Of a stretch of 64,000 nt of DNA, positions 42,593 to 51,514 are shown piece after piece. How positions within the stretch are numbered: position 1 is the first letter of the stretch; every line of letters starts with the position of its first letter. Position numbers and translations under genes: made by a program. Origin of the DNA: Gemmatimonadota bacterium (lineage in GTDB: Bacteria > Gemmatimonadota > Gemmatimonadetes > Palauibacterales > Palauibacteraceae); contig JBDHIO010000002.1 in NCBI GenBank assembly GCA_039587355.1, positions 95,824 through 159,823 on the forward strand, written 5' to 3'. The notes below the pieces were generated by a model. The model had not been told where the DNA came from. It did not search any database and worked only from the letters and a program-made list of their open reading frames with translations.

Positions 42593-42991
42593 TCAGGCTG
42601 CGCTTACCTCGCCGGTATCGATCACTTCCTCTTCGCTCGCACCGACCGCCTCGACCACGACTTCCTCGGCGGTCGCCACCGCGACCTCGATCTCTTCCGC
42701 GTTCTCTGCCGCGTTCTCCTCGACGTCTTCGTCCGCCTCGGTCTTCGCCGCGGCAGCCCGACCCCCGTGCGAGATCGCGGGGGCGCAGTACCGCTCCCCG
42801 ATGGCCCTGAGGGCGACGAGCTCGTCCGGAGTCAGTTCGGGATAGCGCTCCCCGAGGTATTCGATGGTGTCATCGAACCACTCGGAACGCTGATCATCTT
42901 CTGCTTCCAACACACCGCAACGACGAATATGACTGAAGAGCTCATCTCGAGCCCGATCGATCGAATTCGGAACGTATCCACCTTTTCCCAA
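42593..42991 (-). CDS. Hypothetical protein with an acidic C-terminal tail
   Basis: ATG start with coding-like GC3. Glu/Ala/Val-rich tail. No family recognised. Confidence 0.4.
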   Translation of the reverse strand: MGKGGYVPNSIDRARDELFSHIRRCGVLEAEDDQRSEWFDDTIEYLGERYPELTPDELVALRAIGERYCAPAISHGGRAAAAKTEADEDVEENAAENAEEIEVAVATAEEVVVEAVGASEEEVIDTGEVSAA

Positions 42992-43081: not shown

Positions 43082-43887
43082 CTATCCGTCGCCCGGCTCG
43101 AGCTCGCTCAGGTACATGTTCATCTCTCCGACCTTCATCTTCGACTTCAGCTGCACGATCACGCGGCGATGGTCATCGCTGATATAGACCTCGGCCTCGC
43201 CCTCTTCGGAGAAAATGCCGTCCGTCCGGATGACGGGCCGAACCACGATCGTCTCGAAGCGGCCGGCCCGGACTCGAACGCTCTCGCGTCTCAGCACCTC
43301 GACAACGATCGGGTTCCCGCGCTCGAGGAAGTAGTTGTCGAAGCTGTACACCTCTCCCACCTCGAGCGGGAGCGTCCTCACCAGGTAGAGAAAGGAGATC
43401 TCGTCCAGCGCGTTCTGCGGAATCTCGATGTCCCGGTCTTCCGGATGGGGCCGATAGCCACCGGCCTGCTCGTCCCAGTCCTCGCGAACGTAGGTCGACG
43501 AGGTGTGGTCCATCTCCCAGCGGCGATGCCGCTCGTACCCGCCCTGGTCGAGAATCTGTTCGAAGCGGAGCGAGCGGTACGGCGTCGTGGCGAGCCAGCC
43601 GACCTGGCGGTCGTCAATCTTGTAGAAGAAGGGCCCGCCCTCGAGCTCGAGCGCGAGCCGAAACGCCTCCGTGTCGCGGACACGCTCCCGGGCCTCGATG
43701 GCCAGCGAGGCCCGTCCGACCCGGATGGGGCCGAACGTGACGTCGTACGTGGCGCTCTCCCCGACGAGAAACGGCCATTCGGCGACGAAGGGGCCGGCAT
43801 CCGGGAGCGATTCGTCGGCCATCTGGGCCGACCCGGCGCTGAACGACAGGCCGATGGCCAGCGCCACCAGCGGGATCCGCGCTCGCA
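43082..43887 (-). CDS. DUF3108 domain protein (secreted; outer-membrane-associated beta-barrel-like family)
   Basis: ATG at 43887 overlapping the upstream GT2 stop. Signal peptide MRARIPLVALAIGLSFSAGSAQ. The length and beta-rich composition fit DUF3108. Confidence 0.55.
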
Positions 43888-44670
43888 TCACGCGGCGGCC
43901 GATCTCGCACGTTCGGCCGCTTCGCGAATCGATGGATCCCGGCGCGCATGCATCAGGGCCCTGAGCTGCGGCCACGGCTGGAATCGGCTCTCGCGGTACC
44001 GCCGCACACGCGTCGGCGACGGATCGATGACCTCCCCGCGTCGGACGGTCGGGAGGACCCTCAGCAGGAGCTCCGCGTTCGCGGCCCAGCCCTTCTGCCC
44101 GAGTAACGCGTTCCCCTCGCCCGCGTCCGCGAGCGCGCGACCCAGCGTGAATAGCCGGTAGAGCCTGAGGCTCGCATAGGGGTCGTGCGGCTCCTCGGCG
44201 ATCCGCAGACCGCGGGAGAGCAGGTTCGCGCCCGCCCGGATCAGGCGCTGCGGCCGCGGGCCGGCCGCCGGAGGCGAGATCGTGACCAGGTCGGCACCGC
44301 CCTCGAACCGTCGCATCATCTCCGGCACACACTCCGGAGCATCCGTGAAGTCCGCCTGCATCGTGACGAGAGCATCCCGCTTCGGATACCCGGACCGGGC
44401 CGCGGCCTCGCGGACGATCATCTCCAGCGTCGTCGCGTATCCCAGACAGGCGTCGTTGCGGATCAGGGTCATGGGCAACACGCGAGTGTATTTCTCGAGC
44501 ACCTCTTCGGTCCCGTCCGACGACGCATCGTCCACCACGATGACGTGGAACTCGCGTCGCTCCCCATAGAGCAACTCCCGAATCCGCCACAGAAGGGGTC
44601 CGATCGTGTGCCGCTCGTCGTGTACCGGAATGCCTATGTAGATCACTGTTCCAAGCCCCCCGTTTTCCAC
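43888..44670 (-). CDS. Glycosyltransferase family 2 (polyprenyl-phosphate sugar transferase-like)
   Basis: IGIPVHDERHTIGPLL...VIVVDDASSDGT (GT-A DxD context). 260 aa. Confidence 0.7.
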   Translation of the reverse strand: MENGGLGTVIYIGIPVHDERHTIGPLLWRIRELLYGERREFHVIVVDDASSDGTEEVLEKYTRVLPMTLIRNDACLGYATTLEMIVREAAARSGYPKRDALVTMQADFTDAPECVPEMMRRFEGGADLVTISPPAAGPRPQRLIRAGANLLSRGLRIAEEPHDPYASLRLYRLFTLGRALADAGEGNALLGQKGWAANAELLLRVLPTVRRGEVIDPSPTRVRRYRESRFQPWPQLRALMHARRDPSIREAAERARSAAA

Positions 44671-45458
44671 CGCCGATGAAACCAGAAGTACTGCTCGGGT
44701 CGCTCCCTCACGGCCTCCTCAAGTACAGACACCCAGACCCTCGTCGCCGTCACGGCGTCGCCCGCCTCGAGGGCCTCCTCCGCGATCGACTTCACCTCGA
44801 CAAGGTAACCTTTGCCTTCACGCACCAGGCTCCCGAAGACCAGCGGGACTCCGGCCGAGATTGCCAGGCGCGCCGGGCCCAATCGCCACATCGCGGGCCT
44901 TCCCAGAAACGGGATCGGCTCGCCGGCCCAGAAGTGTTGATCCGCCGCGAGCGCCACGCAACGACCGCTCCGAAGAGCCCGGTAGAGCGGCCGCACGCCC
45001 GCATCCTGATCGAGGACCTCCAGACCTATCTCCGATCGTAGCGCGCTCAGCCTGGACCCGAATCTACCGGCCTGCCGGCGCGCGACCGCCGTCAGAGGCA
45101 CCCCCACACTCGCGAGGTACGACCCGGCCAGCTCCCAGTTTCCGAGGTGCCCGGTGACGATGACGGCACCCCGATTCCCGCCCCCGATGCTCGAGAGGAT
45201 ATCGGCCGCCGCCCCCGGGTCGCGGACAGTGCCGAGCGCCCCCCGGACCGCTGTGACGCCGGATGCGAGCAGGCCAAATTCCTCGCCGAAGTGACGGTAG
45301 GAGGCTCTCGCCGTCCGCTTGACCCAAGAATCATCTCGATCCGGAAAGCTCTCGCGAATCTGCGTCTCGACGACACGCCGACGGACGCGTAGCCCCGCGT
45401 GGGCCAGGCCAGCGATCGCCCTTCCCGCGCGACGACCGAGCATCGAACGGTCAGGCAC
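44643..45458 (-). CDS. Lipid A biosynthesis (Kdo2-lipid IVA) acyltransferase, LpxL/HtrB family lysophospholipid acyltransferase
   Basis: Family-typical segments RHFGEEFGLL..., IVTGHLGNWEL (HX4D-like acyltransferase motif region), ALAADQHF. Confidence 0.65.
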   Translation of the reverse strand: MPDRSMLGRRAGRAIAGLAHAGLRVRRRVVETQIRESFPDRDDSWVKRTARASYRHFGEEFGLLASGVTAVRGALGTVRDPGAAADILSSIGGGNRGAVIVTGHLGNWELAGSYLASVGVPLTAVARRQAGRFGSRLSALRSEIGLEVLDQDAGVRPLYRALRSGRCVALAADQHFWAGEPIPFLGRPAMWRLGPARLAISAGVPLVFGSLVREGKGYLVEVKSIAEEALEAGDAVTATRVWVSVLEEAVRERPEQYFWFHRRWKTGGLEQ

Positions 45459-45473
45459 GAATCTCGATCTCGT

Positions 45474-47300
45474 TCACGATGTCGGTGTCATCTGCTCCAG
45501 CTGCCTCGCGAAGAGCCGCGCGTACGCCCCGTCGCGCGCCAGCAGTTCGTCATGCGTCCCCTCCTGGACGAGCCGTCCTTCCTCCAGGACGAGGATCCGG
45601 TCCGCCGCCCGCACGGTGGACAGCCGATGCGCGATGATTAGCACCGTCCGCCCGCGGAACAGCTCGCTCAACGCGTCCTGCACGTGCGTCTCGCTCTCCG
45701 AATCGAGGGCCGAAGTCGCCTCATCCAGAATGAGAATGGGAGAATCACGAAGCACGGCACGCGCGATGCCGATCCTCTGCCGCTGCCCGCCGGAGAGGCG
45801 GGTTCCCCGGTCTCCGAGCACCGTCCCGTAGCCCTCCGGCAACTCCTCGATGAACCCGTCCGCGTGGGCCGCCCGGGCTGCCGCGCGAACCGCGTCGTCC
45901 AGGCCCCCGGCCTCGCCGTAGGCGATGTTCGCGCTAACGGTGTCGTGAAACACCACCGTATCCTGGCTGACGAGTCCGACGAGACGCCGCAGCGAAGCCA
46001 GCGTGAGGTCCCGGATATCCGTCCCATCGATGAGGATCCTGCCCGCGCTCGGATCGGCGAACCTCGGGATCAGGTCGACCAGCGTACTCTTGCCTGCTCC
46101 CGACTGCCCGACTAGAGCCACCATCTCCCCGCGCTCGATCACGAGGTCGACATCGTGGAGGACCGGAAGGTCGCTGCCGTAGGAGAAGGTCACTCCCTCG
46201 AAACGGATTTCGGACTCGAGGCCGGTCGCTTCGATTCCTCCGCCCGACGGCTCAGGGTCCTCTTCGAGGATCTCCTTGAAACGCGCCGCCGCGGCGATGC
46301 CCTGGTGGAACTGAGGCGGCAGCTGCGAGAGCGCCTTGATGGGCGAGATCGCGCGCAGCGCCAGAGTGACAAAGGCGAGAAACTGATCCGGTCCCAGACC
46401 ATTGGACCCGAGCGTGAGACCGGCGCCGATCCACACGAGCGCCAGGGCCACGATCGACGCGAGCGTCTCGGACACGGGCGAGGCGAGATGCCCCACCATG
46501 TTCGTCTTCATGCTCGCGGAAGCGAACCGGGCGGAGCGCGTGGCGAATCTCCTCGCCTCCAGATCCTCCGTGCCCGACGCCTTCACGAGCCTCATGCCGG
46601 TGAGGTTCTCCTGGAGCGCGCTCGTCACTTCGCCGCGATAGTCGAACACGCGAGTCCATGCGGATCGCAGGCGTCCGAGAATCGGCCTCAACGCGAAGAT
46701 CATGATCGGTATGAGAACGAGGGCCAGGAGCGACAACCGCCAGGAGAGGACGACCAGCCCCGCGACGTGGGCCAGGATGGACGCCACGTGCCGCACGTAC
46801 ATGGACCCCACGGACGGGATCAGGCGAGCTTCGCGGGTATCCGACTCCACCCGCGCGATGAGCTGTCCTGTCTTGTCCTTGCCGAAGAACGCGAGCGGAA
46901 GGCGCTGCATGTGCGCCTGAACGGCGTTCCGAAGGTCGCGAATCAGCGACTCCTCGACGCGAATCGACAGGGCCGTCGCGCCGAACAACGAGACGTTCTT
47001 GACGATCGTTACGAGAATGACCACCAGGCAGACGAGCCGCAGCGCCGCGAGCCCCTCGGAATCCCCGATAATCCAGCCGAACAGGGTTTCGATCAGGCGC
47101 TCGGCGGAGTTCCTCCCCCCGCCCGGAAGGACCGCCCCCATGTCGAAGAGCGAACGGAGAAACGGGATGAGGAGCAGGATGCCGAAGGCGTCGAGTGCGG
47201 ATCCGAGAACGCCGAGGACCAGCGACGCCGCGAACGCGGCCCGGTAGGGCCTCAGGTACGACAGGACCAGGTGTAAGGGGGCTTCTTCGAGGATCCTCAT
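45474..47300 (-). CDS. ABC transporter permease/ATP-binding protein, MsbA-like lipid A/lipid exporter
   Basis: Six-TM domain followed by an NBD with Walker A GQSGAGKST, signature LSGGQRQRIGIARA and Walker B ILILDEATSALD. ATGA overlap with the upstream regulator gene. Confidence 0.85.
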   Translation of the reverse strand: MRILEEAPLHLVLSYLRPYRAAFAASLVLGVLGSALDAFGILLLIPFLRSLFDMGAVLPGGGRNSAERLIETLFGWIIGDSEGLAALRLVCLVVILVTIVKNVSLFGATALSIRVEESLIRDLRNAVQAHMQRLPLAFFGKDKTGQLIARVESDTREARLIPSVGSMYVRHVASILAHVAGLVVLSWRLSLLALVLIPIMIFALRPILGRLRSAWTRVFDYRGEVTSALQENLTGMRLVKASGTEDLEARRFATRSARFASASMKTNMVGHLASPVSETLASIVALALVWIGAGLTLGSNGLGPDQFLAFVTLALRAISPIKALSQLPPQFHQGIAAAARFKEILEEDPEPSGGGIEATGLESEIRFEGVTFSYGSDLPVLHDVDLVIERGEMVALVGQSGAGKSTLVDLIPRFADPSAGRILIDGTDIRDLTLASLRRLVGLVSQDTVVFHDTVSANIAYGEAGGLDDAVRAAARAAHADGFIEELPEGYGTVLGDRGTRLSGGQRQRIGIARAVLRDSPILILDEATSALDSESETHVQDALSELFRGRTVLIIAHRLSTVRAADRILVLEEGRLVQEGTHDELLARDGAYARLFARQLEQMTPTS

Positions 47301-48874
47301 TTCGGGGTCAGCAGGGCCGCCGGCATGATCATCTCATCCGGACTGACACCGCCGTGCAGGAAGCTGTCCCGATACCGGTTCTGATACTCCCGCAGCTTCG
47401 TCGGATAGACGAAGAAGTAGTCCTCTCGACAGAGCACGTACGTCTGCTTCAACCCGCCGGGCGGTAACCGCAGCTCGTCCGCGTCGGACGTCGCGAAGAC
47501 GGCTGAGGGATTCTCGACCCGCAGATCGTCCCCGAACTTGTACCGCAGGTTCGCCGTGGCGTCCCGTTTCGCGTAGACGGTCGCGGGTCGGTGACAGTGC
47601 AGCGACCCGTGATCCGTGGTCAGCAGGACCCTCACTCCCCGCTGCGCCGCGATCCGGAGCGCGCGAAACGCCGCGGAGCGCTTGAACCAGTTCACCGTCA
47701 GGGCACGGAGCGCGCTCGTATCCGGCGCCATCTCCCAGATCAGCCTCGACTCGGACCGGCCGTGCGTCAGCATGTCGACGAATCCGAAGACGAGCGCCGT
47801 GGCCGAGGGACTCGAGAGATAGCCCTCGAGTCGGCCGAGCATAGCATCGCCTTCGCCCGCCGAGAAGATCTTTTCGTAGTGCGTCGGCATCCGGCCACCG
47901 GCGAGCTCCGCGACGTGGCGATCGAACAGCTCATCCTCGAACGAGTTGTATCCGATCTCGTCCCCGCGCTCCCACCACTCGGGGCGCAATTCCGCGAGCT
48001 CATCCGGAAACAGACCGCTGAACAGGGCGTTTCGCGCATACGGCGTGGCCGTCGGGAGAATCGAGGAATAGAGCTCCTCCTCGATCTCGAAGAACTCCGA
48101 CACCAGTGGCGCGATCGCGCGCCACTGCCCCAGCCGCATGCAGTCCATGACGATCAACAGCGAGGCCGGGTCTTCGGTCAGCAGGGGGCTGAACATGCGG
48201 CGCAGCACGTCGACGGACAGAGTCGGACCCTCCTCGCCGCCCTCGTGCACCCACTCGCCGTATCGATCCGCGACGAAGTCGCAGAACCCCCGGCGGAGGT
48301 CCACCACCAGCGTGTCGAGGATGTCGCGGAGCCCGCTCTCTTGGGCCTCCTCGAGCTTGAGATCCCAGTCGATCATCTCCGAGTAGAGAGACGACCAGTC
48401 GGTCCACGAACGCGCGGTGGAGCACGCATCCCGGAGTTCCCCGAAACGTCGGGAGAAATCGCGAGCGATCTGCTCGTGTCGGAGGGCCGGGCCCGCGAGT
48501 AGCCGCGTCACGACGGAGAGGACCTGTCGGGGACTCGTCGGCTTCACGATGTAGTCGTCGGCTCGCCGCCCAATCGCCTCGTGCATCGTCGAGTCTTCCT
48601 CGCTCTTCGTCACCATGACGATGGGAAGACGCGGCGACGTGCGTCGGACACGATCGAGCACCTCGATGCCCCTGAGACCCGGCATCTGTTCGTCGAGGAG
48701 GACGAGGTCGTACGTCCTGCTCGCGAGAAGCTCCAGCGCGTCCTGGCCGTTCATGATCGCGTCGACCTGGTACCCCTCCGAGCGCAACAGCATGAGGTGC
48801 GGACGCAGGAGGTCCACCTCATCGTCCACCCAGAGGATCTTCCCTGCCCGAACGCCCTGCGTGGCTTCCGGCAC
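47297..48874 (-). CDS. Response regulator with receiver (REC) domain fused to a PglZ (alkaline-phosphatase-like) domain, PorX-like
   Basis: N-terminal REC (ILWVDDEVDLL..., phospho-acceptor context DLVLLDEQMPG, KP in IVKPT). C-terminal PglZ motifs including LLTTDHGSLHCHR (TxDHG). About 525 aa, as in PorX. Confidence 0.75.
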   Translation of the reverse strand: MPEATQGVRAGKILWVDDEVDLLRPHLMLLRSEGYQVDAIMNGQDALELLASRTYDLVLLDEQMPGLRGIEVLDRVRRTSPRLPIVMVTKSEEDSTMHEAIGRRADDYIVKPTSPRQVLSVVTRLLAGPALRHEQIARDFSRRFGELRDACSTARSWTDWSSLYSEMIDWDLKLEEAQESGLRDILDTLVVDLRRGFCDFVADRYGEWVHEGGEEGPTLSVDVLRRMFSPLLTEDPASLLIVMDCMRLGQWRAIAPLVSEFFEIEEELYSSILPTATPYARNALFSGLFPDELAELRPEWWERGDEIGYNSFEDELFDRHVAELAGGRMPTHYEKIFSAGEGDAMLGRLEGYLSSPSATALVFGFVDMLTHGRSESRLIWEMAPDTSALRALTVNWFKRSAAFRALRIAAQRGVRVLLTTDHGSLHCHRPATVYAKRDATANLRYKFGDDLRVENPSAVFATSDADELRLPPGGLKQTYVLCREDYFFVYPTKLREYQNRYRDSFLHGGVSPDEMIMPAALLTPK

Positions 48875-48875
48875 T

Positions 48876-49943
48876 TCAGTCCCCCGCGCCCCGATACCGA
48901 TCCCTCAACACTGCCAGCTTCTCTATGACATCCTCCTCCGAGATCGACTCCATGTTGCCCGGCCGCGTGACCCGAGATGGCTCCGTTTCACCGGGTCTGG
49001 TATACCGGTCCACGAGCAGATCGGCAAAGCGGCGGTACGGTCCGACACGCTTCGGATCCGTAAACCCGAACAGACCGATCGTAGGGGTGCCCAGCGCCAC
49101 CGCAATGTGCAGCGGGCCGGTGTCGGGACTCAGAACGGCGTCGCTCGCATCGAGCAGCCACGTCATCCGCCGCAAATCACGGTGCAACTCGACGTCCGGT
49201 GGGTGTCGGCAGAGGTCCCCCAAACGGGCCGCATCCGCCGCCTCCCCGGCCGACGGTCCCCCAACGAGGATCGTGCGATACCCGAAGTCCCGAGCGGCCA
49301 CATCCAGTACCCGGGCCGTCCGGTCCAGGATCCAGTCCTTCTCCGGCCGGGAAGAGCGGGTGGCGACGGCCAGGATCGGACGCCCATCGCCCTTCTCGAG
49401 CCAGCGACCGCGCGCCTCGCGCTCCTCCGGAGTGAAGTGGAAGTCCCATTCCGGGACCGTCGGCACGCCGATGTAGTCGAGGAACTCGAAGTACTGATCC
49501 TGCACGTGCCCCGGCGGACGTGCCGGAATCCGGCGATTCGTCGCGAGCCAGCTCAGATCGCGGGAACGGGCGCGGTCGTACCCCACGCGGAGCGGAGCAT
49601 CCATGAGCCGGGTAACGACGGCGGCCTTGAAGTACGGGTGCATGTCGAGCACCAGATCGAAGGACCTGTTGGCGATGTCTCGGCGGAAGTCACGATACGC
49701 CCTTACGCCACGTTCCCGATGAAAGAGCACGAACTCGTCGACATCGGGACGACCGCGCATGAGCTCGTGCGGGAGTGGCTGGATCACCCAGGTGATGTGA
49801 CACGACGGCCACGCGCGGCGAATGGAGGCCGCAACGGGGATTGCGTGGACCGTGTCGCCGATGGCGCTCATGCGCACGAGGGCGACTCGATCCGGCGGCC
49901 GATCGAGGTCGAGCCGGCCGGTCATGTCGGCGGATTCAAGCAC
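48876..49943 (-). CDS. LPS heptosyltransferase (glycosyltransferase family 9, WaaC/WaaF/RfaQ-like)
   Basis: GT9 pattern (RVALVRMSAIGDTVHAIPVAASIRR...). C-terminal DTGPLHIAVALGTPTIGLFG. Confidence 0.75.
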   Translation of the reverse strand: MLESADMTGRLDLDRPPDRVALVRMSAIGDTVHAIPVAASIRRAWPSCHITWVIQPLPHELMRGRPDVDEFVLFHRERGVRAYRDFRRDIANRSFDLVLDMHPYFKAAVVTRLMDAPLRVGYDRARSRDLSWLATNRRIPARPPGHVQDQYFEFLDYIGVPTVPEWDFHFTPEEREARGRWLEKGDGRPILAVATRSSRPEKDWILDRTARVLDVAARDFGYRTILVGGPSAGEAADAARLGDLCRHPPDVELHRDLRRMTWLLDASDAVLSPDTGPLHIAVALGTPTIGLFGFTDPKRVGPYRRFADLLVDRYTRPGETEPSRVTRPGNMESISEEDVIEKLAVLRDRYRGAGD

Positions 49944-50030: not shown

Positions 50031-51504
50031 GATGAGCATCCTCACACGCTATCTGTTGCGGCTCCAAGTGGCCCCGTTCGTCTTCGCGGTGACCGGGCTC
50101 ACGCTGCTGCTCCTGCTCGACCAGGTCAGCAAGCGGTTCGCGGACCTGATCGGGAAAGACCTCCACTGGACGGTGATCGTGGAGGTCTTCGTGTACTCGG
50201 TACCGTTCATTCTCGCCCAGACCCTGCCGATGGCGGTGCTCATCGCGGTCCTCTACACGTTCAACCGTCTCGCCGGCAACTACGAAATCACCGCGATCCG
50301 CGCCAGCGGCGTGTCGCTCATCCGCATCATGGCTCCGTTGATGGTCGCGGCCACGATTCTCGCGGGGGCGATGACCTGGTTCAACAACACGATTCTCCCC
50401 GAGTCGAATCACACGCTCCAGGCGCTGCTCACGAGCATCGGTCGCAAGAAGCCGACGTTCTATCTACGCGAACGAACGATCAACGAGGTACTCCCGTCGC
50501 GGCTGTACGTGCAACCCGGCCCGATCCATCGCGAGCGCAGCGCGTTCGATGATGTCGTCATCTACGACGAGCGAGGGAGCAAAAGCCGGACGATCTACGC
50601 CGACAGCGGCCGCATGGCGTTTGGTGGAGGCGGCGAAGATCTCTACCTCACGCTTCTCGACGGGACGCTGCAGGAACGCGTCGAAGACAGCCCGCACTCT
50701 TTTCAACGGATCAAGTTCCACCGGATGGTGATGAAGGTGGAGGATGTGTCCAACCTCCTCGAGCGCGACACGCTGAACAGCTACCGCAGTGATCGCGAGA
50801 TGAACATCCAGGACATGCACGAGATGGTCGTGGAGGGCGAACAGAGGGTCGCCCTCGCTCGAGCCGAGTCGCAGGAATACGCGATCGCGCTCGCGGAACG
50901 GCTCACCCGGTTCAGCGAGCCTCTCGAGGCGGCGGGCGAGATAGAAGGCAATCCGGTGGACGACCCCGCGCGCTCGCCGCTCGAGGCAGCGGACCCGACT
51001 GCCGAACGACTCGAGTCGCTTCGTCAGGACGGGGCGCGATCACCACCCGGAGCAGGGGAAGAAATCGTCGACCCGGGCACCAAGCTACAGGCACCGTCGG
51101 CGGACTCGGCGCGGGCGCTCGCTCGAGCCGCGGCCGAGCGCTTCGTCGCGGCGGTAGACGCGACCAACCGGTTCGACGCGTACCACCAGCGCGACCTGTC
51201 CGGGCAGGCACAGATCAACAAGTTCTGGGTCGAAATCCACAAGAAGGGGTCCATCCCCGCGGCCTGCATCGTATTCGTGTTGATCGGAGCCCCCATCGCG
51301 GTCCGCTACCCACGGGCCGGCGTCGCGCTCGTCGTGGGCGTCAGCCTGGTGTTCTTCGGCGCCTACTACGTCTCGCTCGTCGGCGGCGAGGAGCTCGCGG
51401 ATCGGAGGCTCATCTCCCCGCTCTGGGCCATGTGGGGACCCAACGTGCTCTTCGGCGTGGTCGGTCTCATCGCCCTGCTCCAGGCGAGACGGGTCTCCTC
51501 GTGA
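50031..51504 (+). CDS. lptF: LPS export ABC transporter permease LptF (YjgP/YjgQ family)
   Basis: ATG at 50031 gives MSILTRYLLRLQVAPFVFAVTGLTLLLL (typical LptF/G start). Three N-terminal TM segments, periplasmic beta-jellyroll, three C-terminal TM segments. Confidence 0.75.
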
Positions 51505-51514
51505 GTGTCCACGA

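What the first reader, a model, noticed from the sequence alone, without database searches (positions are those of the whole stretch)
43082..49943. LPS/lipid A operon with an embedded PorX-like REC-PglZ response regulator
Six minus-strand genes are packed with 1-28 nt overlaps or gaps in this order: GT9 heptosyltransferase -> REC::PglZ regulator -> MsbA-like ABC exporter -> LpxL-type lipid A acyltransferase -> GT2 -> DUF3108 secreted protein. Divergent lptF-lptG (50031-52591) sits immediately upstream. PorX-type regulators are known from Bacteroidota, where they act as orphan regulators of type IX secretion. A REC-PglZ gene translationally coupled (ATGA overlap at 47297-47300, 1-nt gap at 48875) inside a lipid A/core LPS biosynthesis and export operon is not an arrangement I know to be described. 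It suggests phosphorylation-controlled (or PglZ phosphodiesterase-controlled) remodelling or export of LPS.
Basis: partly seen in the sequence, partly recalled or inferred. Interest (0 to 1): 0.75.

Follow-up and report, generated by a model that had tools for sequence, protein, structure and literature searches.

The report
PorX regulator inside Gemmatimonadota LPS operon

Summary
Six minus-strand genes (43082-49943) encode a GT9 glycosyltransferase, a REC-PglZ protein, an MsbA-like ABC exporter, an LpxL-type acyltransferase, a GT2 and a signal-peptide DUF3108 protein. Junctions run from a 4-nt overlap to a 30-nt gap. lptF and lptG are divergent upstream.

The REC-PglZ protein is a real PorX ortholog. 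It scores 544 bits against NCBIfam PorX (cut-off 300) and aligns end to end with solved PorX structures. All receiver and metal-site residues are kept, and they are essentially invariant in 133 Gemmatimonadota homologs.

In 24 of 24 Gemmatimonadota loci that extend past porX, msbA follows it. The gap is -4 to +5 nt in 18, or 19 with an alternative L004 start; one further start could not be placed. One subclade adds lpxL-GT2-DUF3108. None of 60 loci from other phyla of the Fibrobacterota-Chlorobiota-Bacteroidota (FCB) superphylum has this. There porX is followed by tsaE/ubK, and preceded by sprA, a histidine kinase, or a divergent lpxD-lpxC/fabZ-lpxA cluster.

So this is a lineage-specific, strongly conserved context for a known regulator. 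Control of LPS by PorX is unproven, and I could not establish whether these organisms have a T9SS. Novelty: new variant of a known kind. Interest is moderate.

The parts
48876..49943 (-). First gene of the cluster: a GT9 glycosyltransferase (355 aa). Its best matches are LPS heptosyltransferases (WaaC type), below equivalog cut-offs.
   Evidence: Pfam PF01075, 130 bits. TIGR02193 heptosyltransferase I, 112 bits against a cut-off of 185. Same gene call in L001. Found upstream on the same strand only in the window's close relatives L001-L005.
47297..48874 (-). porX ortholog: an N-terminal receiver domain fused to a PglZ / alkaline-phosphatase-superfamily domain (525 aa), with no DNA-binding domain.
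   Evidence: NF052313 T9SS_RR_PorX, 543.8 bits (cut-off 300), positions 2-513 of 513. Matches P. gingivalis PorX 7pv7 at E 1.4e-117 over residues 7-525, and the 8ted/8p6f chains at 1e-105; 8ted is F. johnsoniae PorX by my own recollection. D17, D18, D61, T89, K111, D244, T277, D367, H371, D421, H422 and H507 are all kept. They are invariant in 133 Gemmatimonadota homologs, apart from a conservative T-to-S at two positions.
47297..47300 (-). ATGA: the porX stop codon (TGA) overlaps the msbA start codon (ATG).
   Evidence: Sequence read. A gap of -4 to +5 nt is seen in 18 of 24 Gemmatimonadota loci, or 19 with an alternative start in L004.
45474..47300 (-). MsbA-like half-size ABC exporter (608 aa), the probable lipid A-core flippase.
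   Evidence: PF00664 and PF00005. The best NCBIfam family is TIGR02203 MsbA, 515 bits, below its cut-off of 602. With the membrane domain alone, the 15 best solved-structure matches are all MsbA. The basic residues that contact lipid A in E. coli/Salmonella MsbA (R78, R148, K299) align with K101, R170 and K322.
44643..45443 (-). LpxL-type (lipid A late) acyltransferase, 266 aa.
   Evidence: PF03279 Lip_A_acyltrans, 112 bits. No NCBIfam equivalog reaches its cut-off. The H-x4-E motif GHLGNWE is visible in the translation. It follows msbA in L001-L016 wherever the downstream DNA was recovered (L003, L010 and L015 end too early).
43888..44646 (-). GT2 glycosyltransferase (252 aa), soluble type.
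   Evidence: PF00535, 58 bits. Only weak NCBIfam matches, among them ArnC (undecaprenyl-phosphate aminoarabinose transferase) at E 1e-5. Conserved after lpxL in L001-L016 wherever the downstream DNA was recovered.
43082..43888 (-). DUF3108 protein (268 aa) with an N-terminal signal peptide; last gene of the cluster.
   Evidence: PF11306, 114 bits. The signal-like N-terminus MRARIPLVALAIGLSFSAGSAQ is visible. No solved relative by sequence. The family has been described as an outer-membrane beta-barrel with a YmcC fold (PMC4364669).
49944..50031 (.). 88-nt divergent intergenic region between the GT9 gene and lptF; the presumed promoter region for both units (inferred).
   Evidence: Sequence. 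No sigma-70-type consensus was found there, but that scan is not tuned to this phylum.
50032..51504 (+). lptF (490 aa), with an insertion of roughly 130 residues relative to the family profile.
   Evidence: PF03739, 255 bits in two stretches. TIGR04407 LptF, 173 bits.
51515..52591 (+). lptG (358 aa).
   Evidence: PF03739, 241 bits. TIGR04408 LptG, 184 bits.

Best explanation
Shown:
- The window comes from a Gemmatimonadota genome.
- Bases 43082-49943 form one tightly packed unit for late LPS assembly and export: GT9 core glycosyltransferase, porX, msbA, lpxL-type acyltransferase, GT2, and an exported DUF3108 protein. It is transcribed away from lptF-lptG.
[quoted passage not shown] It has an intact phospho-acceptor site and an intact two-zinc phosphodiesterase site.
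- The porX-msbA junction (overlapping or nearly abutting stop and start codons) is conserved across the phylum, and PorX of the phylum forms one clade. The pairing therefore most probably arose once in the phylum's ancestor. It occupies the position that tsaE/ubK holds after porX in other FCB phyla.

Inferred:
- The six genes are one transcript, and msbA translation is coupled to porX translation, so PorX is made in step with LPS export capacity.
- PorX most likely still works as it does elsewhere. An unlinked kinase phosphorylates D61, the protein dimerises, and it then acts through protein partners and through hydrolysis of signalling oligonucleotides. It does not act on LPS itself.
- The likely benefit is to tie a regulator of outer-membrane surface assembly to the supply of LPS. 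That assembly would be type IX secretion if the organism has it, whose cargo is anchored to LPS in P. gingivalis.
For: Family assignments.

PorX orthology and active-site conservation.

Organism: best homologs are named Gemmatimonadota or Candidatus Palauibacter, and the contig is identical to one in GCA_039586785.1.

Synteny:
- Same six genes plus lptFG at 67-78% PorX identity.
- porX-msbA-lpxL-GT2-DUF3108 at 54-59% identity.
- porX-msbA alone, with a divergent RfaF-like GT9, in Gemmatimonadales at 48-52% identity.

Intergenic distances: -4 to +5 nt in 18 of 24 loci, or 19 with an alternative L004 start.

Phylogeny: in a neighbour-joining tree the 25 Gemmatimonadota PorX sequences form one clade, and each of the two synteny types forms a subclade.

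No promoter-like site, and no terminator-like signal above shuffled expectation, inside the cluster.

MsbA identity: membrane domain closest to solved MsbA, and the lipid A-contacting basic residues are kept.

Known PorX biochemistry: PMC9757075, PMC11320123, PMC4800418, PMC5005315.

LPS anchoring of T9SS cargo: PMC8545088.
Against: - No transcript data: co-transcription and translational coupling are inferred from spacing only.
- I could not show that this organism, or any Gemmatimonadota genome, encodes a T9SS.
- No sprA, histidine kinase or tsaE lies within 10 kb of porX in 26 loci.
- No type A C-terminal sorting domain was detected in the window or those loci with a small home-made HMM. 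The literature only says T9SS 'may also be present' in the phylum (PMC11285876).
- Four loci break the tight junction: 31 nt, 34-100 nt, 309 nt and a 2.2-kb insertion. Coupling is therefore not obligatory.
- Conserved gene order alone cannot tell functional coordination from inherited synteny.
Confidence: 0.5

Rival explanations
1. In Gemmatimonadota, PorX is a dedicated post-translational controller of LPS export or remodelling. Phosphorylated PorX would bind MsbA (or LptFG/LptB) and tune flipping. Alternatively its PglZ phosphodiesterase would act on a cytoplasmic LPS precursor or on a nucleotide signal that gates LPS assembly.
For: - Phylum-wide, codon-overlapping porX-msbA pairing.
- The catalytic residues of both domains are essentially invariant.
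- PorX has no DNA-binding domain and is known to act by binding a membrane-protein cytoplasmic domain, PorL (PMC5005315).
- porX lies near other LPS genes in other phyla: lptFG in Ignavibacteria-like MAGs and lpxD-lpxC/fabZ-lpxA in Bacteroidota.
- No T9SS signature was found near porX in Gemmatimonadota.
Against: - No direct evidence of any PorX-LPS biochemical link.
- The known substrates are cyclic and linear oligoadenylates (PMC9757075).
- The protein shows no obvious lineage-specific domain or insertion relative to P. gingivalis PorX.
- In Bacteroidota the lpx genes are on the opposite strand, one gene away, which is weak linkage.
Confidence: 0.2
2. Inherited or neutral synteny. porX was already next to envelope genes in an FCB ancestor, and msbA and its neighbours were later inserted downstream. 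The tight spacing reflects genome compaction and shared expression level only, with no regulatory relationship between PorX and LPS.
For: - lptG-lptF divergent from a sprA-porX-tsaE block in five Ignavibacteria/Chlorobi-like loci mirrors lptG-lptF divergent from GT9-porX-msbA here.
- The genes around the porX-msbA pair vary between Gemmatimonadota subclades.
- A few loci tolerate insertions between porX and msbA.
Against: - Adjacency is retained in 24 of 24 species-level lineages whose PorX sequences are as little as 46% identical to one another (48% or more to the window). Overlapping codons are retained in most.
- That is stronger conservation than neutral order usually shows. The flanking genes were reshuffled while this junction was kept.
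Confidence: 0.25
3. The REC-PglZ gene is not PorX but a defence-type PglZ (BREX/Pgl-like), or another PglZ response regulator that only resembles PorX.
For: It does hit the general PglZ Pfam model, and weakly the BREX-3 PglZ model (58.7 bits, cut-off 250).
Against: - PorX equivalog at 544 bits over the whole model.
- Full-length alignment to solved PorX at E 1e-117.
- Length of 525 aa is typical of PorX, whereas BREX PglZ proteins have at least 600 (PMC9757075).
- No BREX genes nearby.
Confidence: 0.02

Closest known systems
PorX of Porphyromonas gingivalis (PGN_1019; PDB 7PV7) and Flavobacterium johnsoniae (Fjoh_2906; PDB 8TED by my own recollection)
   Same: - Same architecture and length.
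- 36% identity to the P. gingivalis protein over the whole chain.
- Identical receiver and PglZ catalytic residues.
- No DNA-binding domain.
- No adjacent histidine kinase.
   Different: - Here it is the second gene of an LPS operon, with its stop overlapping the msbA start.
- In Bacteroidota it is followed by tsaE/ubK and is not in an LPS operon.
- A role in type IX secretion is untested here.
- Tyr79, the UbK1 target in P. gingivalis, is Arg here.
The porX-ubK1 (tsaE) gene pair reported in P. gingivalis (PMC13241743)
   Same: A conserved gene immediately downstream of porX, used in that paper to infer a functional partner.
   Different: - In Gemmatimonadota the downstream partner is msbA, not tsaE.
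- My survey extends the tsaE pairing to 39 of 59 non-Gemmatimonadota FCB loci. It is absent from all 26 Gemmatimonadota loci.
Proteobacterial LPS late-step clusters (msbA-lpxK, waa operons, lptFG); comparison from general knowledge
   Same: MsbA, a late acyltransferase, core glycosyltransferases and lptFG clustered as envelope housekeeping genes.
   Different: To my knowledge those clusters carry no response regulator, and none with a PglZ domain.
pmrCAB (eptA-pmrA-pmrB) type lipid A modification operons; comparison from general knowledge
   Same: A response regulator and an alkaline-phosphatase-superfamily enzyme encoded together with LPS functions.
   Different: - PmrA is a DNA-binding regulator with its kinase next door.
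- EptA is a separate, membrane-bound periplasmic transferase.
- Here the receiver and the phosphatase-fold domain are one cytoplasmic protein, with no kinase nearby.
BREX/Pgl PglZ proteins
   Same: They share the PglZ fold and the metal-binding residues.
   Different: They have no receiver domain, are longer, and sit in a defence-island context. The match here is weak (58.7 bits against a cut-off of 250).

Membership tests
PorX (T9SS response regulator, REC-PglZ) | Full-length match to the curated PorX equivalog model and to solved PorX structures | tested here: met
   NF052313, 543.8 bits (cut-off 300), model positions 2-513 of 513. 7pv7 at E 1.4e-117 over residues 7-525.
PorX (T9SS response regulator, REC-PglZ) | Receiver-domain phospho-acceptor Asp and its acidic, Thr and Lys partners (P. 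gingivalis D14, D15, D58, T86, K108) | tested here: met
   D17, D18, D61, T89 and K111. Invariant in 133 Gemmatimonadota homologs, apart from a conservative T-to-S at position 89 in 8.
PorX (T9SS response regulator, REC-PglZ) | PglZ two-zinc site and Thr nucleophile (D239, T272, D361, H365, D415, H416, H500) | tested here: met
   D244, T277, D367, H371, D421, H422 and H507. Invariant in 133 homologs, apart from one T-to-S at position 277.
PorX (T9SS response regulator, REC-PglZ) | No DNA-binding output domain; length about 500-530 aa | tested here: met
   Only Response_reg and PglZ are found, in 525 aa.
PorX (T9SS response regulator, REC-PglZ) | Host genome encodes a type IX secretion system, and PorX controls it (binds SigP and PorL) | tested here: inconclusive
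   - No sprA, kinase or tsaE within 10 kb of porX in 26 Gemmatimonadota loci.
- No sorting domain found in the window or those loci with a 7-sequence HMM.
- No T9SS gene among the window proteins scanned.
- Whole genomes could not be searched.
- The literature says only 'may be present'.
PorX (T9SS response regulator, REC-PglZ) | Usual neighbourhood in other FCB phyla: tsaE/ubK immediately downstream | tested here: not met
   tsaE sits at +1 or +2 in 39 of 59 non-Gemmatimonadota loci. Here msbA is at +1. This is a context feature and does not define the protein family.
MsbA (lipid A-core flippase) | Half-size type IV ABC exporter (membrane domain plus ATP-binding domain) | tested here: met
   PF00664 and PF00005.
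MsbA (lipid A-core flippase) | Score above the curated MsbA equivalog cut-off | tested here: not met
   TIGR02203, 515 bits against a cut-off of 602. It is nevertheless the best-scoring family.
MsbA (lipid A-core flippase) | Basic residues that contact lipid A phosphates in E. coli/Salmonella MsbA (R78, R148, K299; from general knowledge) | tested here: met
   K101, R170 and K322 align with them. With the membrane domain alone, the best solved matches are all MsbA.
LpxL/LpxM late acyltransferases | Lip_A_acyltrans domain with the H-x4-D/E motif | tested here: met
   PF03279, 112 bits. GHLGNWE is visible in the translation. No NCBIfam equivalog cut-off is reached, so substrate specificity is unknown.
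GT9 LPS heptosyltransferases | GT9 domain; equivalog-level match to WaaC, WaaF or WaaQ | tested here: inconclusive
   PF01075, 130 bits. The best equivalog, heptosyltransferase I, scores 112 bits against a cut-off of 185.
Single operon (co-transcription) | One transcript covering all six genes | not testable with these tools
   Only indirect support. Gaps run from -4 to +30 nt. No promoter-like site lies inside the cluster, and the one terminator-like hairpin lies within the DUF3108 coding sequence.

The most novel reading that the evidence does not exclude
In Gemmatimonadota, PorX is not a secretion regulator. It would be a phosphorylation-gated cytoplasmic partner of the MsbA/Lpt pathway: a checkpoint that couples an envelope signal or a nucleotide second messenger to LPS flipping. 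The recurrent placement of porX beside LPS genes in three FCB lineages (lptFG, lpxD-C-A, msbA-lpxL) would then mean that LPS and outer-membrane assembly is the ancestral business of the PorX family. This would give a physiological role to its so far unexplained PglZ phosphodiesterase.
Probability: 0.15. Interest if true: 0.8.

Novelty: new variant of a known kind. Interest (0 to 1): 0.5.

Why it matters
PorX is studied as a drug target and as the master switch of type IX secretion, but several things about it remain unsettled:
- the in vivo role of its PglZ enzyme domain;
- its true kinase;
- its reported DNA binding, although it has no DNA-binding domain.

A phylum-wide, codon-overlapping pairing with the lipid A flippase gene gives a concrete, testable partner hypothesis outside Bacteroidota. 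T9SS cargo is anchored to LPS, and a lipid A phosphatase in P. gingivalis depends on a working T9SS (PMC8545088, PMC12704123). A genomic tie between PorX and LPS export therefore fits a known but poorly understood physiological link.

The survey also maps PorX neighbourhoods across the FCB superphylum. An adjacent histidine kinase appears in several phyla, which could help identify the ancestral cognate kinase.

If the link is only shared expression, the finding is a useful annotation note for Gemmatimonadota LPS operons and little more.

Tried and rejected
1. BREX-type PglZ was rejected: 58.7 bits against 544 for PorX.
2. Chance adjacency was rejected by the synteny survey.
3. A promoter and terminator scan found no promoter-like site inside the cluster and no terminator-like signal above shuffled expectation; the one hairpin hit lies within the DUF3108 coding sequence. 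The scan is generic and weak for this phylum.
4. Rfam over the whole window gave no RNA family.
5. Attempts to decide whether Gemmatimonadota have a T9SS all failed to settle it:
   - tblastn with sprA, the porX-linked kinase, tsaE, tsaB and the HD protein against the window and 26 loci found nothing.
   - I built a sorting-domain HMM from seven C-termini found near porX in other phyla. It recovered eight strong and two weaker hits in non-Gemmatimonadota loci but none in Gemmatimonadota DNA. Only about 0.5 Mb was searched, with a narrow model, so this is inconclusive.
   - Scanning 150 C-terminal fragments against NCBIfam in alignment mode was uninformative, because only the 25 commonest families are listed; GT4 glycosyltransferases dominated.
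   - Papers on Palauibacterales and on marine Gemmatimonadota do not mention secretion systems.
6. DUF3108 has no solved relative by sequence. I did not model it, because only a single-sequence prediction was allowed without spending a database search.
7. My early guess that the dnaA-dnaN origin region lies at about 35-38 kb was wrong. Those genes are a thiolase, a 3-hydroxyacyl-CoA dehydrogenase and an unassigned ORF.
8. The two remaining large protein searches were not used. A SprA query would return only its closest relatives and could not reveal Gemmatimonadota homologs.

Full report
**What is in the window**

The region is 66% G+C, like the rest of the window. Between 43082 and 49943 the minus strand carries six open reading frames with the third-position G+C bias of real genes. 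A public contig with identical proteins (GCA_039586785.1, locus L001) carries the same six gene calls.

| Gene | Coordinates | Pfam result |
|---|---|---|
| GT9 | 48876-49943 | Glyco_transf_9 |
| REC-PglZ | 47297-48874 | Response_reg + PglZ |
| ABC exporter | 45474-47300 | ABC_membrane + ABC_tran |
| Acyltransferase | 44643-45443 | Lip_A_acyltrans |
| GT2 | 43888-44646 | Glycos_transf_2 |
| DUF3108 (signal-peptide-like N-terminus) | 43082-43888 | DUF3108 |

lptF (50032-51504) and lptG (51515-52591) are transcribed in the opposite direction from an 88-nt intergenic region.

I read the junctions directly:
- The GT9 TGA is followed by one base and then the GTG of the regulator.
- The regulator's TGA and the ATG of the exporter share ATGA at 47297-47300.
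- The other junctions are a 15-30 nt gap, a 4-nt overlap and a 1-nt overlap.

A generic scan finds no promoter-like site inside the cluster. Its one terminator-like hairpin there lies within the DUF3108 coding sequence, and such hits are no more frequent than in shuffled sequence. One promoter-like site lies just after the last stop codon. Rfam finds nothing in the window.

**What the regulator is**

NCBIfam's curated equivalog model for the T9SS response regulator PorX matches end to end at 543.8 bits against a cut-off of 300. The next families match only the receiver domain, and a BREX PglZ model reaches 58.7 bits against a cut-off of 250. The protein aligns over residues 7-525 with crystallised P. 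gingivalis PorX (7pv7, E 1.4e-117, 36% identity). It also matches the 8ted and 8p6f chains, which I take to be the F. johnsoniae protein.

Every residue shown to matter in P. gingivalis PorX is present:
- The receiver residues D14, D15, D58, T86 and K108 correspond to D17, D18, D61, T89 and K111.
- The zinc ligands and Thr nucleophile D239, T272, D361, H365, D415, H416 and H500 correspond to D244, T277, D367, H371, D421, H422 and H507 (residue roles from PMC9757075).

In an alignment of 133 Gemmatimonadota homologs these positions are invariant, apart from a conservative T-to-S change at two of them. This is a functional PorX ortholog, not a look-alike.

**What the neighbours are**

- **ABC exporter.** Its best family is MsbA, at 515 bits, below the strict cut-off of 602. 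With the membrane domain alone, the fifteen best solved structures are all MsbA. The basic residues that hold lipid A in E. coli/Salmonella MsbA (R78, R148, K299, from general knowledge) align with K101, R170 and K322. I therefore call it MsbA with good but not complete confidence.
- **GT9 protein.** It is closest to heptosyltransferase I, but below cut-off.
- **Acyltransferase.** It has the family domain and an H-x4-E motif, but no equivalog-level match.
- **GT2.** It is generic.
- **DUF3108.** It has no solved relative by sequence. The family has been described as an outer-membrane barrel with a YmcC fold (PMC4364669).
- **Beyond lptG.** A GDP-mannose 4,6-dehydratase and an epimerase lie there.

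The locus is thus a late-step LPS assembly and export neighbourhood.

**Organism and conservation**

The closest homologs of the regulator are all from Gemmatimonadota, one of them named Candidatus Palauibacter. I looked up contigs encoding homologs at decreasing identity:
- At 78%, 72% and 67% identity, the whole arrangement is kept, including lptFG. One locus has a Kdo kinase inserted, and another has an extra gene before DUF3108.
- At 59% identity, the upstream genes differ, but porX-msbA-lpxL-GT2-DUF3108 remains, with a 4-nt porX/msbA overlap.

A profile of 57 diverse PorX sequences then retrieved 80 loci from species-representative genomes. Twenty are Gemmatimonadota. Sixty come from other phyla: Bacteroidota, Ignavibacteria and Chlorobi-like MAGs, Eisenbacteria, Latescibacteria, Zixibacteria, KSB1, Calditrichota, Poribacteria and others.

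tblastn with the window's proteins gives a clean result:
- msbA lies downstream of porX on the same strand in every Gemmatimonadota locus that extends past porX: 24 of 24, counting the window's own contig. It is the very next gene in all but one, where a 2.2-kb insertion intervenes.
- lpxL-GT2-DUF3108 follow in one subclade (L001-L016) wherever the downstream DNA was recovered.
- The Gemmatimonadales subclade (L017-L026) keeps only porX-msbA. It often has a divergent RfaF-like GT9 gene just upstream, seen in five loci in the neighbour clustering, and other glycosyltransferases nearby.
- None of the 60 non-Gemmatimonadota loci has msbA, lpxL, GT2 or DUF3108 within 10 kb.

The distance from the porX stop to the msbA start breaks down as follows:
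- -4 to +5 nt in 18 loci, or 19 if the alternative start in L004 is used;
- 13-17 nt in L005 (and in L004 with its other start);
- the start could not be placed in L010, where the msbA match itself begins inside the porX stop;
- exceptions of 31 nt, 34-100 nt, 309 nt and one 2.2-kb insertion.

In a neighbour-joining tree the Gemmatimonadota PorX sequences form one clade, and each synteny type is a subclade. The simplest history is a single origin of the porX-msbA pair in the ancestor of the phylum, followed by strong retention.

**What surrounds porX elsewhere**

Clustering the neighbours in the 59 usable non-Gemmatimonadota loci shows a different, equally conserved context:
- **Downstream.** tsaE sits directly downstream, at +1 or +2, in 39 loci. 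tsaB and accD usually follow, or alanine dehydrogenase in Bacteroidota. tsaE is the gene called ubK1 in P. gingivalis. A 2026 paper used the porX-ubK1 adjacency in 81 P. gingivalis strains to show that UbK1 phosphorylates PorX on Tyr79 (PMC13241743). That tyrosine is Arg in the window and is rarely conserved.
- **Upstream, Ignavibacteria/Chlorobi-like loci.** The T9SS translocon gene sprA is on the same strand in nine loci. In five of these, lptG-lptF are divergent from it.
- **Upstream, other phyla.** A histidine kinase is on the same strand in 14 loci of Eisenbacteria, Latescibacteria, Zixibacteria, Poribacteria and relatives.
- **Upstream, Bacteroidota.** In 12 loci there is a gene with HD-type motifs, followed by lpxD, lpxC/fabZ and lpxA on the opposite strand.

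Two points follow. First, the msbA pairing is specific to Gemmatimonadota and occupies the position of the tsaE pairing. Second, proximity of porX to LPS genes of one sort or another recurs in three lineages. Part of the LPS flavour of the window, notably lptFG, may therefore be old synteny rather than a new functional invention.

**Does the organism have a T9SS?**

This matters for interpretation, and I could not settle it.
- No T9SS gene appears among the window proteins I scanned.
- sprA, the porX-linked kinase and tsaE are absent from all 26 Gemmatimonadota loci.
- A sorting-domain HMM built from seven C-termini found near porX in other phyla recovers eight strong and two weaker hits outside Gemmatimonadota, but none in about 0.5 Mb of Gemmatimonadota DNA. 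The model is narrow and the sample small.
- A review states only that T9SS 'may also be present' in Gemmatimonadetes (PMC11285876).

**How it most likely works**

Shown:
- The gene order and the overlaps.
- The orthology and the conservation of active sites.
- The phylum-wide retention of the pair.

Inferred:
- The six genes form one transcript.
- Ribosomes finishing porX start msbA.
- PorX keeps its known mode of action. That is phosphorylation of D61 by an unlinked kinase, dimerisation, zinc-dependent oligonucleotide phosphodiesterase activity, and binding to protein partners (PMC9757075, PMC11320123, PMC4800418, PMC5005315).

The most economical reading is that placing porX in the LPS export operon ties the amount of this surface-assembly regulator to LPS supply. 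This makes sense because T9SS cargo is anchored to LPS (PMC8545088). I give that reading about 0.5.

It is compatible with the data and is the more exciting reading, but nothing here shows it (0.2). Neutral or inherited synteny remains possible (0.25). It has to explain why this one junction was kept while everything around it was reshuffled.

**Novelty and verdict**

I found no paper describing PorX in an LPS operon, or PorX in Gemmatimonadota beyond automatic annotation. The protein is a new member of a known family. The conserved, codon-overlapping pairing with msbA is a new variant of that family's genomic setting. It gives a testable hypothesis about a regulator whose enzymatic domain still lacks a physiological role.

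It is a context observation only, so I score interest at 0.5. The most novel reading not excluded is that PorX acts as a checkpoint on LPS export. I give that a probability of 0.15 and an interest of 0.8 if true.

Noticed in passing
L028, L042-L046, L055, L056, L060, L064, L067, L079, L083, L084 (gene at -1 or -2 relative to porX): In 14 loci from non-Bacteroidota FCB phyla (Eisenbacteria, Latescibacteria, Zixibacteria, Poribacteria and others) a histidine kinase of about 410-480 aa lies directly upstream of porX on the same strand. PorX is therefore not an orphan regulator there. This kinase family could point to the ancestral cognate kinase, which is debated in P. gingivalis.
   Followed up: partly
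L027, L033, L034, L041, L049, L051, L062, L066, L076: The T9SS translocon gene sprA (TIGR04189, 1077 bits for L062) lies immediately upstream of porX on the same strand. In five of these loci lptG-lptF are divergent from sprA. This mirrors the lptG-lptF / GT9-porX layout of the window.
   Followed up: partly
L054, L061, L063, L069, L073-L075, L077, L080, L082, L085, L086: In 12 Bacteroidota loci the lipid A genes lpxD, lpxC/fabZ (fused) and lpxA lie one gene away from porX. The gene in between has HD-type motifs, and the lpx genes are on the opposite strand. This is a second, independent case of porX lying near lipid A genes.
   Followed up: partly
L029, L030, L032 (two), L037, L044, L050, L060: Proteins with a T9SS type A C-terminal sorting domain (the NPFNP...SG[IV]Y...K[ML]xL[IL]K pattern) lie within 10 kb of porX in seven loci, six from non-Bacteroidota FCB lineages and one (L032) labelled uncultured Bacteroidetes. 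No such domain was found in the window or in the 26 Gemmatimonadota loci.
   Followed up: partly
window 42593-42991 (-): A 132-aa ORF with an acidic C-terminal half and no family match. It follows DUF3108 after a promoter-like site (43062-43033). It is conserved (49-80% identity) downstream of the cluster in L002, L004-L007, L009 and L016, usually before the CNNM/CorC transporter gene.
   Followed up: partly
window 50032-51504 (+): LptF is 490 aa and matches the LptF/LptG profile in two stretches. An insertion of about 130 residues, rich in Glu, Ala and Arg, lies in the middle of the protein. Relatives have LptF proteins of 440-498 aa.
   Followed up: no
L013 11557-13819; L005 10867-11682: Two loci have insertions in the conserved block. 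L013 has about 2.2 kb, with an 808-aa ORF on the opposite strand, between porX and msbA. L005 has a Kdo kinase gene (PF06293) on the opposite strand between msbA and lpxL.
   Followed up: no
window 47297-48874 (-), residue 82 of the protein: Tyr79 is the site at which UbK1 phosphorylates P. gingivalis PorX. It is Arg in the window and Tyr in only 2 of 57 diverse PorX sequences, so that modification is unlikely to be general.
   Followed up: yes
L006-L008, L011 (genes -3 to -1 relative to porX): In one Gemmatimonadota subclade, porX is preceded on the same strand by three genes: a large TPR protein, a 440-aa protein, and a 222-aa protein whose C-terminus looks TonB-like by eye. The unit may be longer there.
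   Followed up: no
window and L002-L026, C-termini of 150 large ORFs: Nine of 150 large ORFs around porX in Gemmatimonadota are GT4-type glycosyltransferases. The porX region is generally a glycan and LPS assembly neighbourhood in this phylum.
   Followed up: no
window 52598-54870 (-): Two sugar-nucleotide genes sit next to lptG: a GalE-like NAD-dependent epimerase (52598-53566) and a GDP-mannose 4,6-dehydratase (53563-54870, TIGR01472, 420 bits against a cut-off of 415). They extend the envelope-polysaccharide character of the locus.
   Followed up: no
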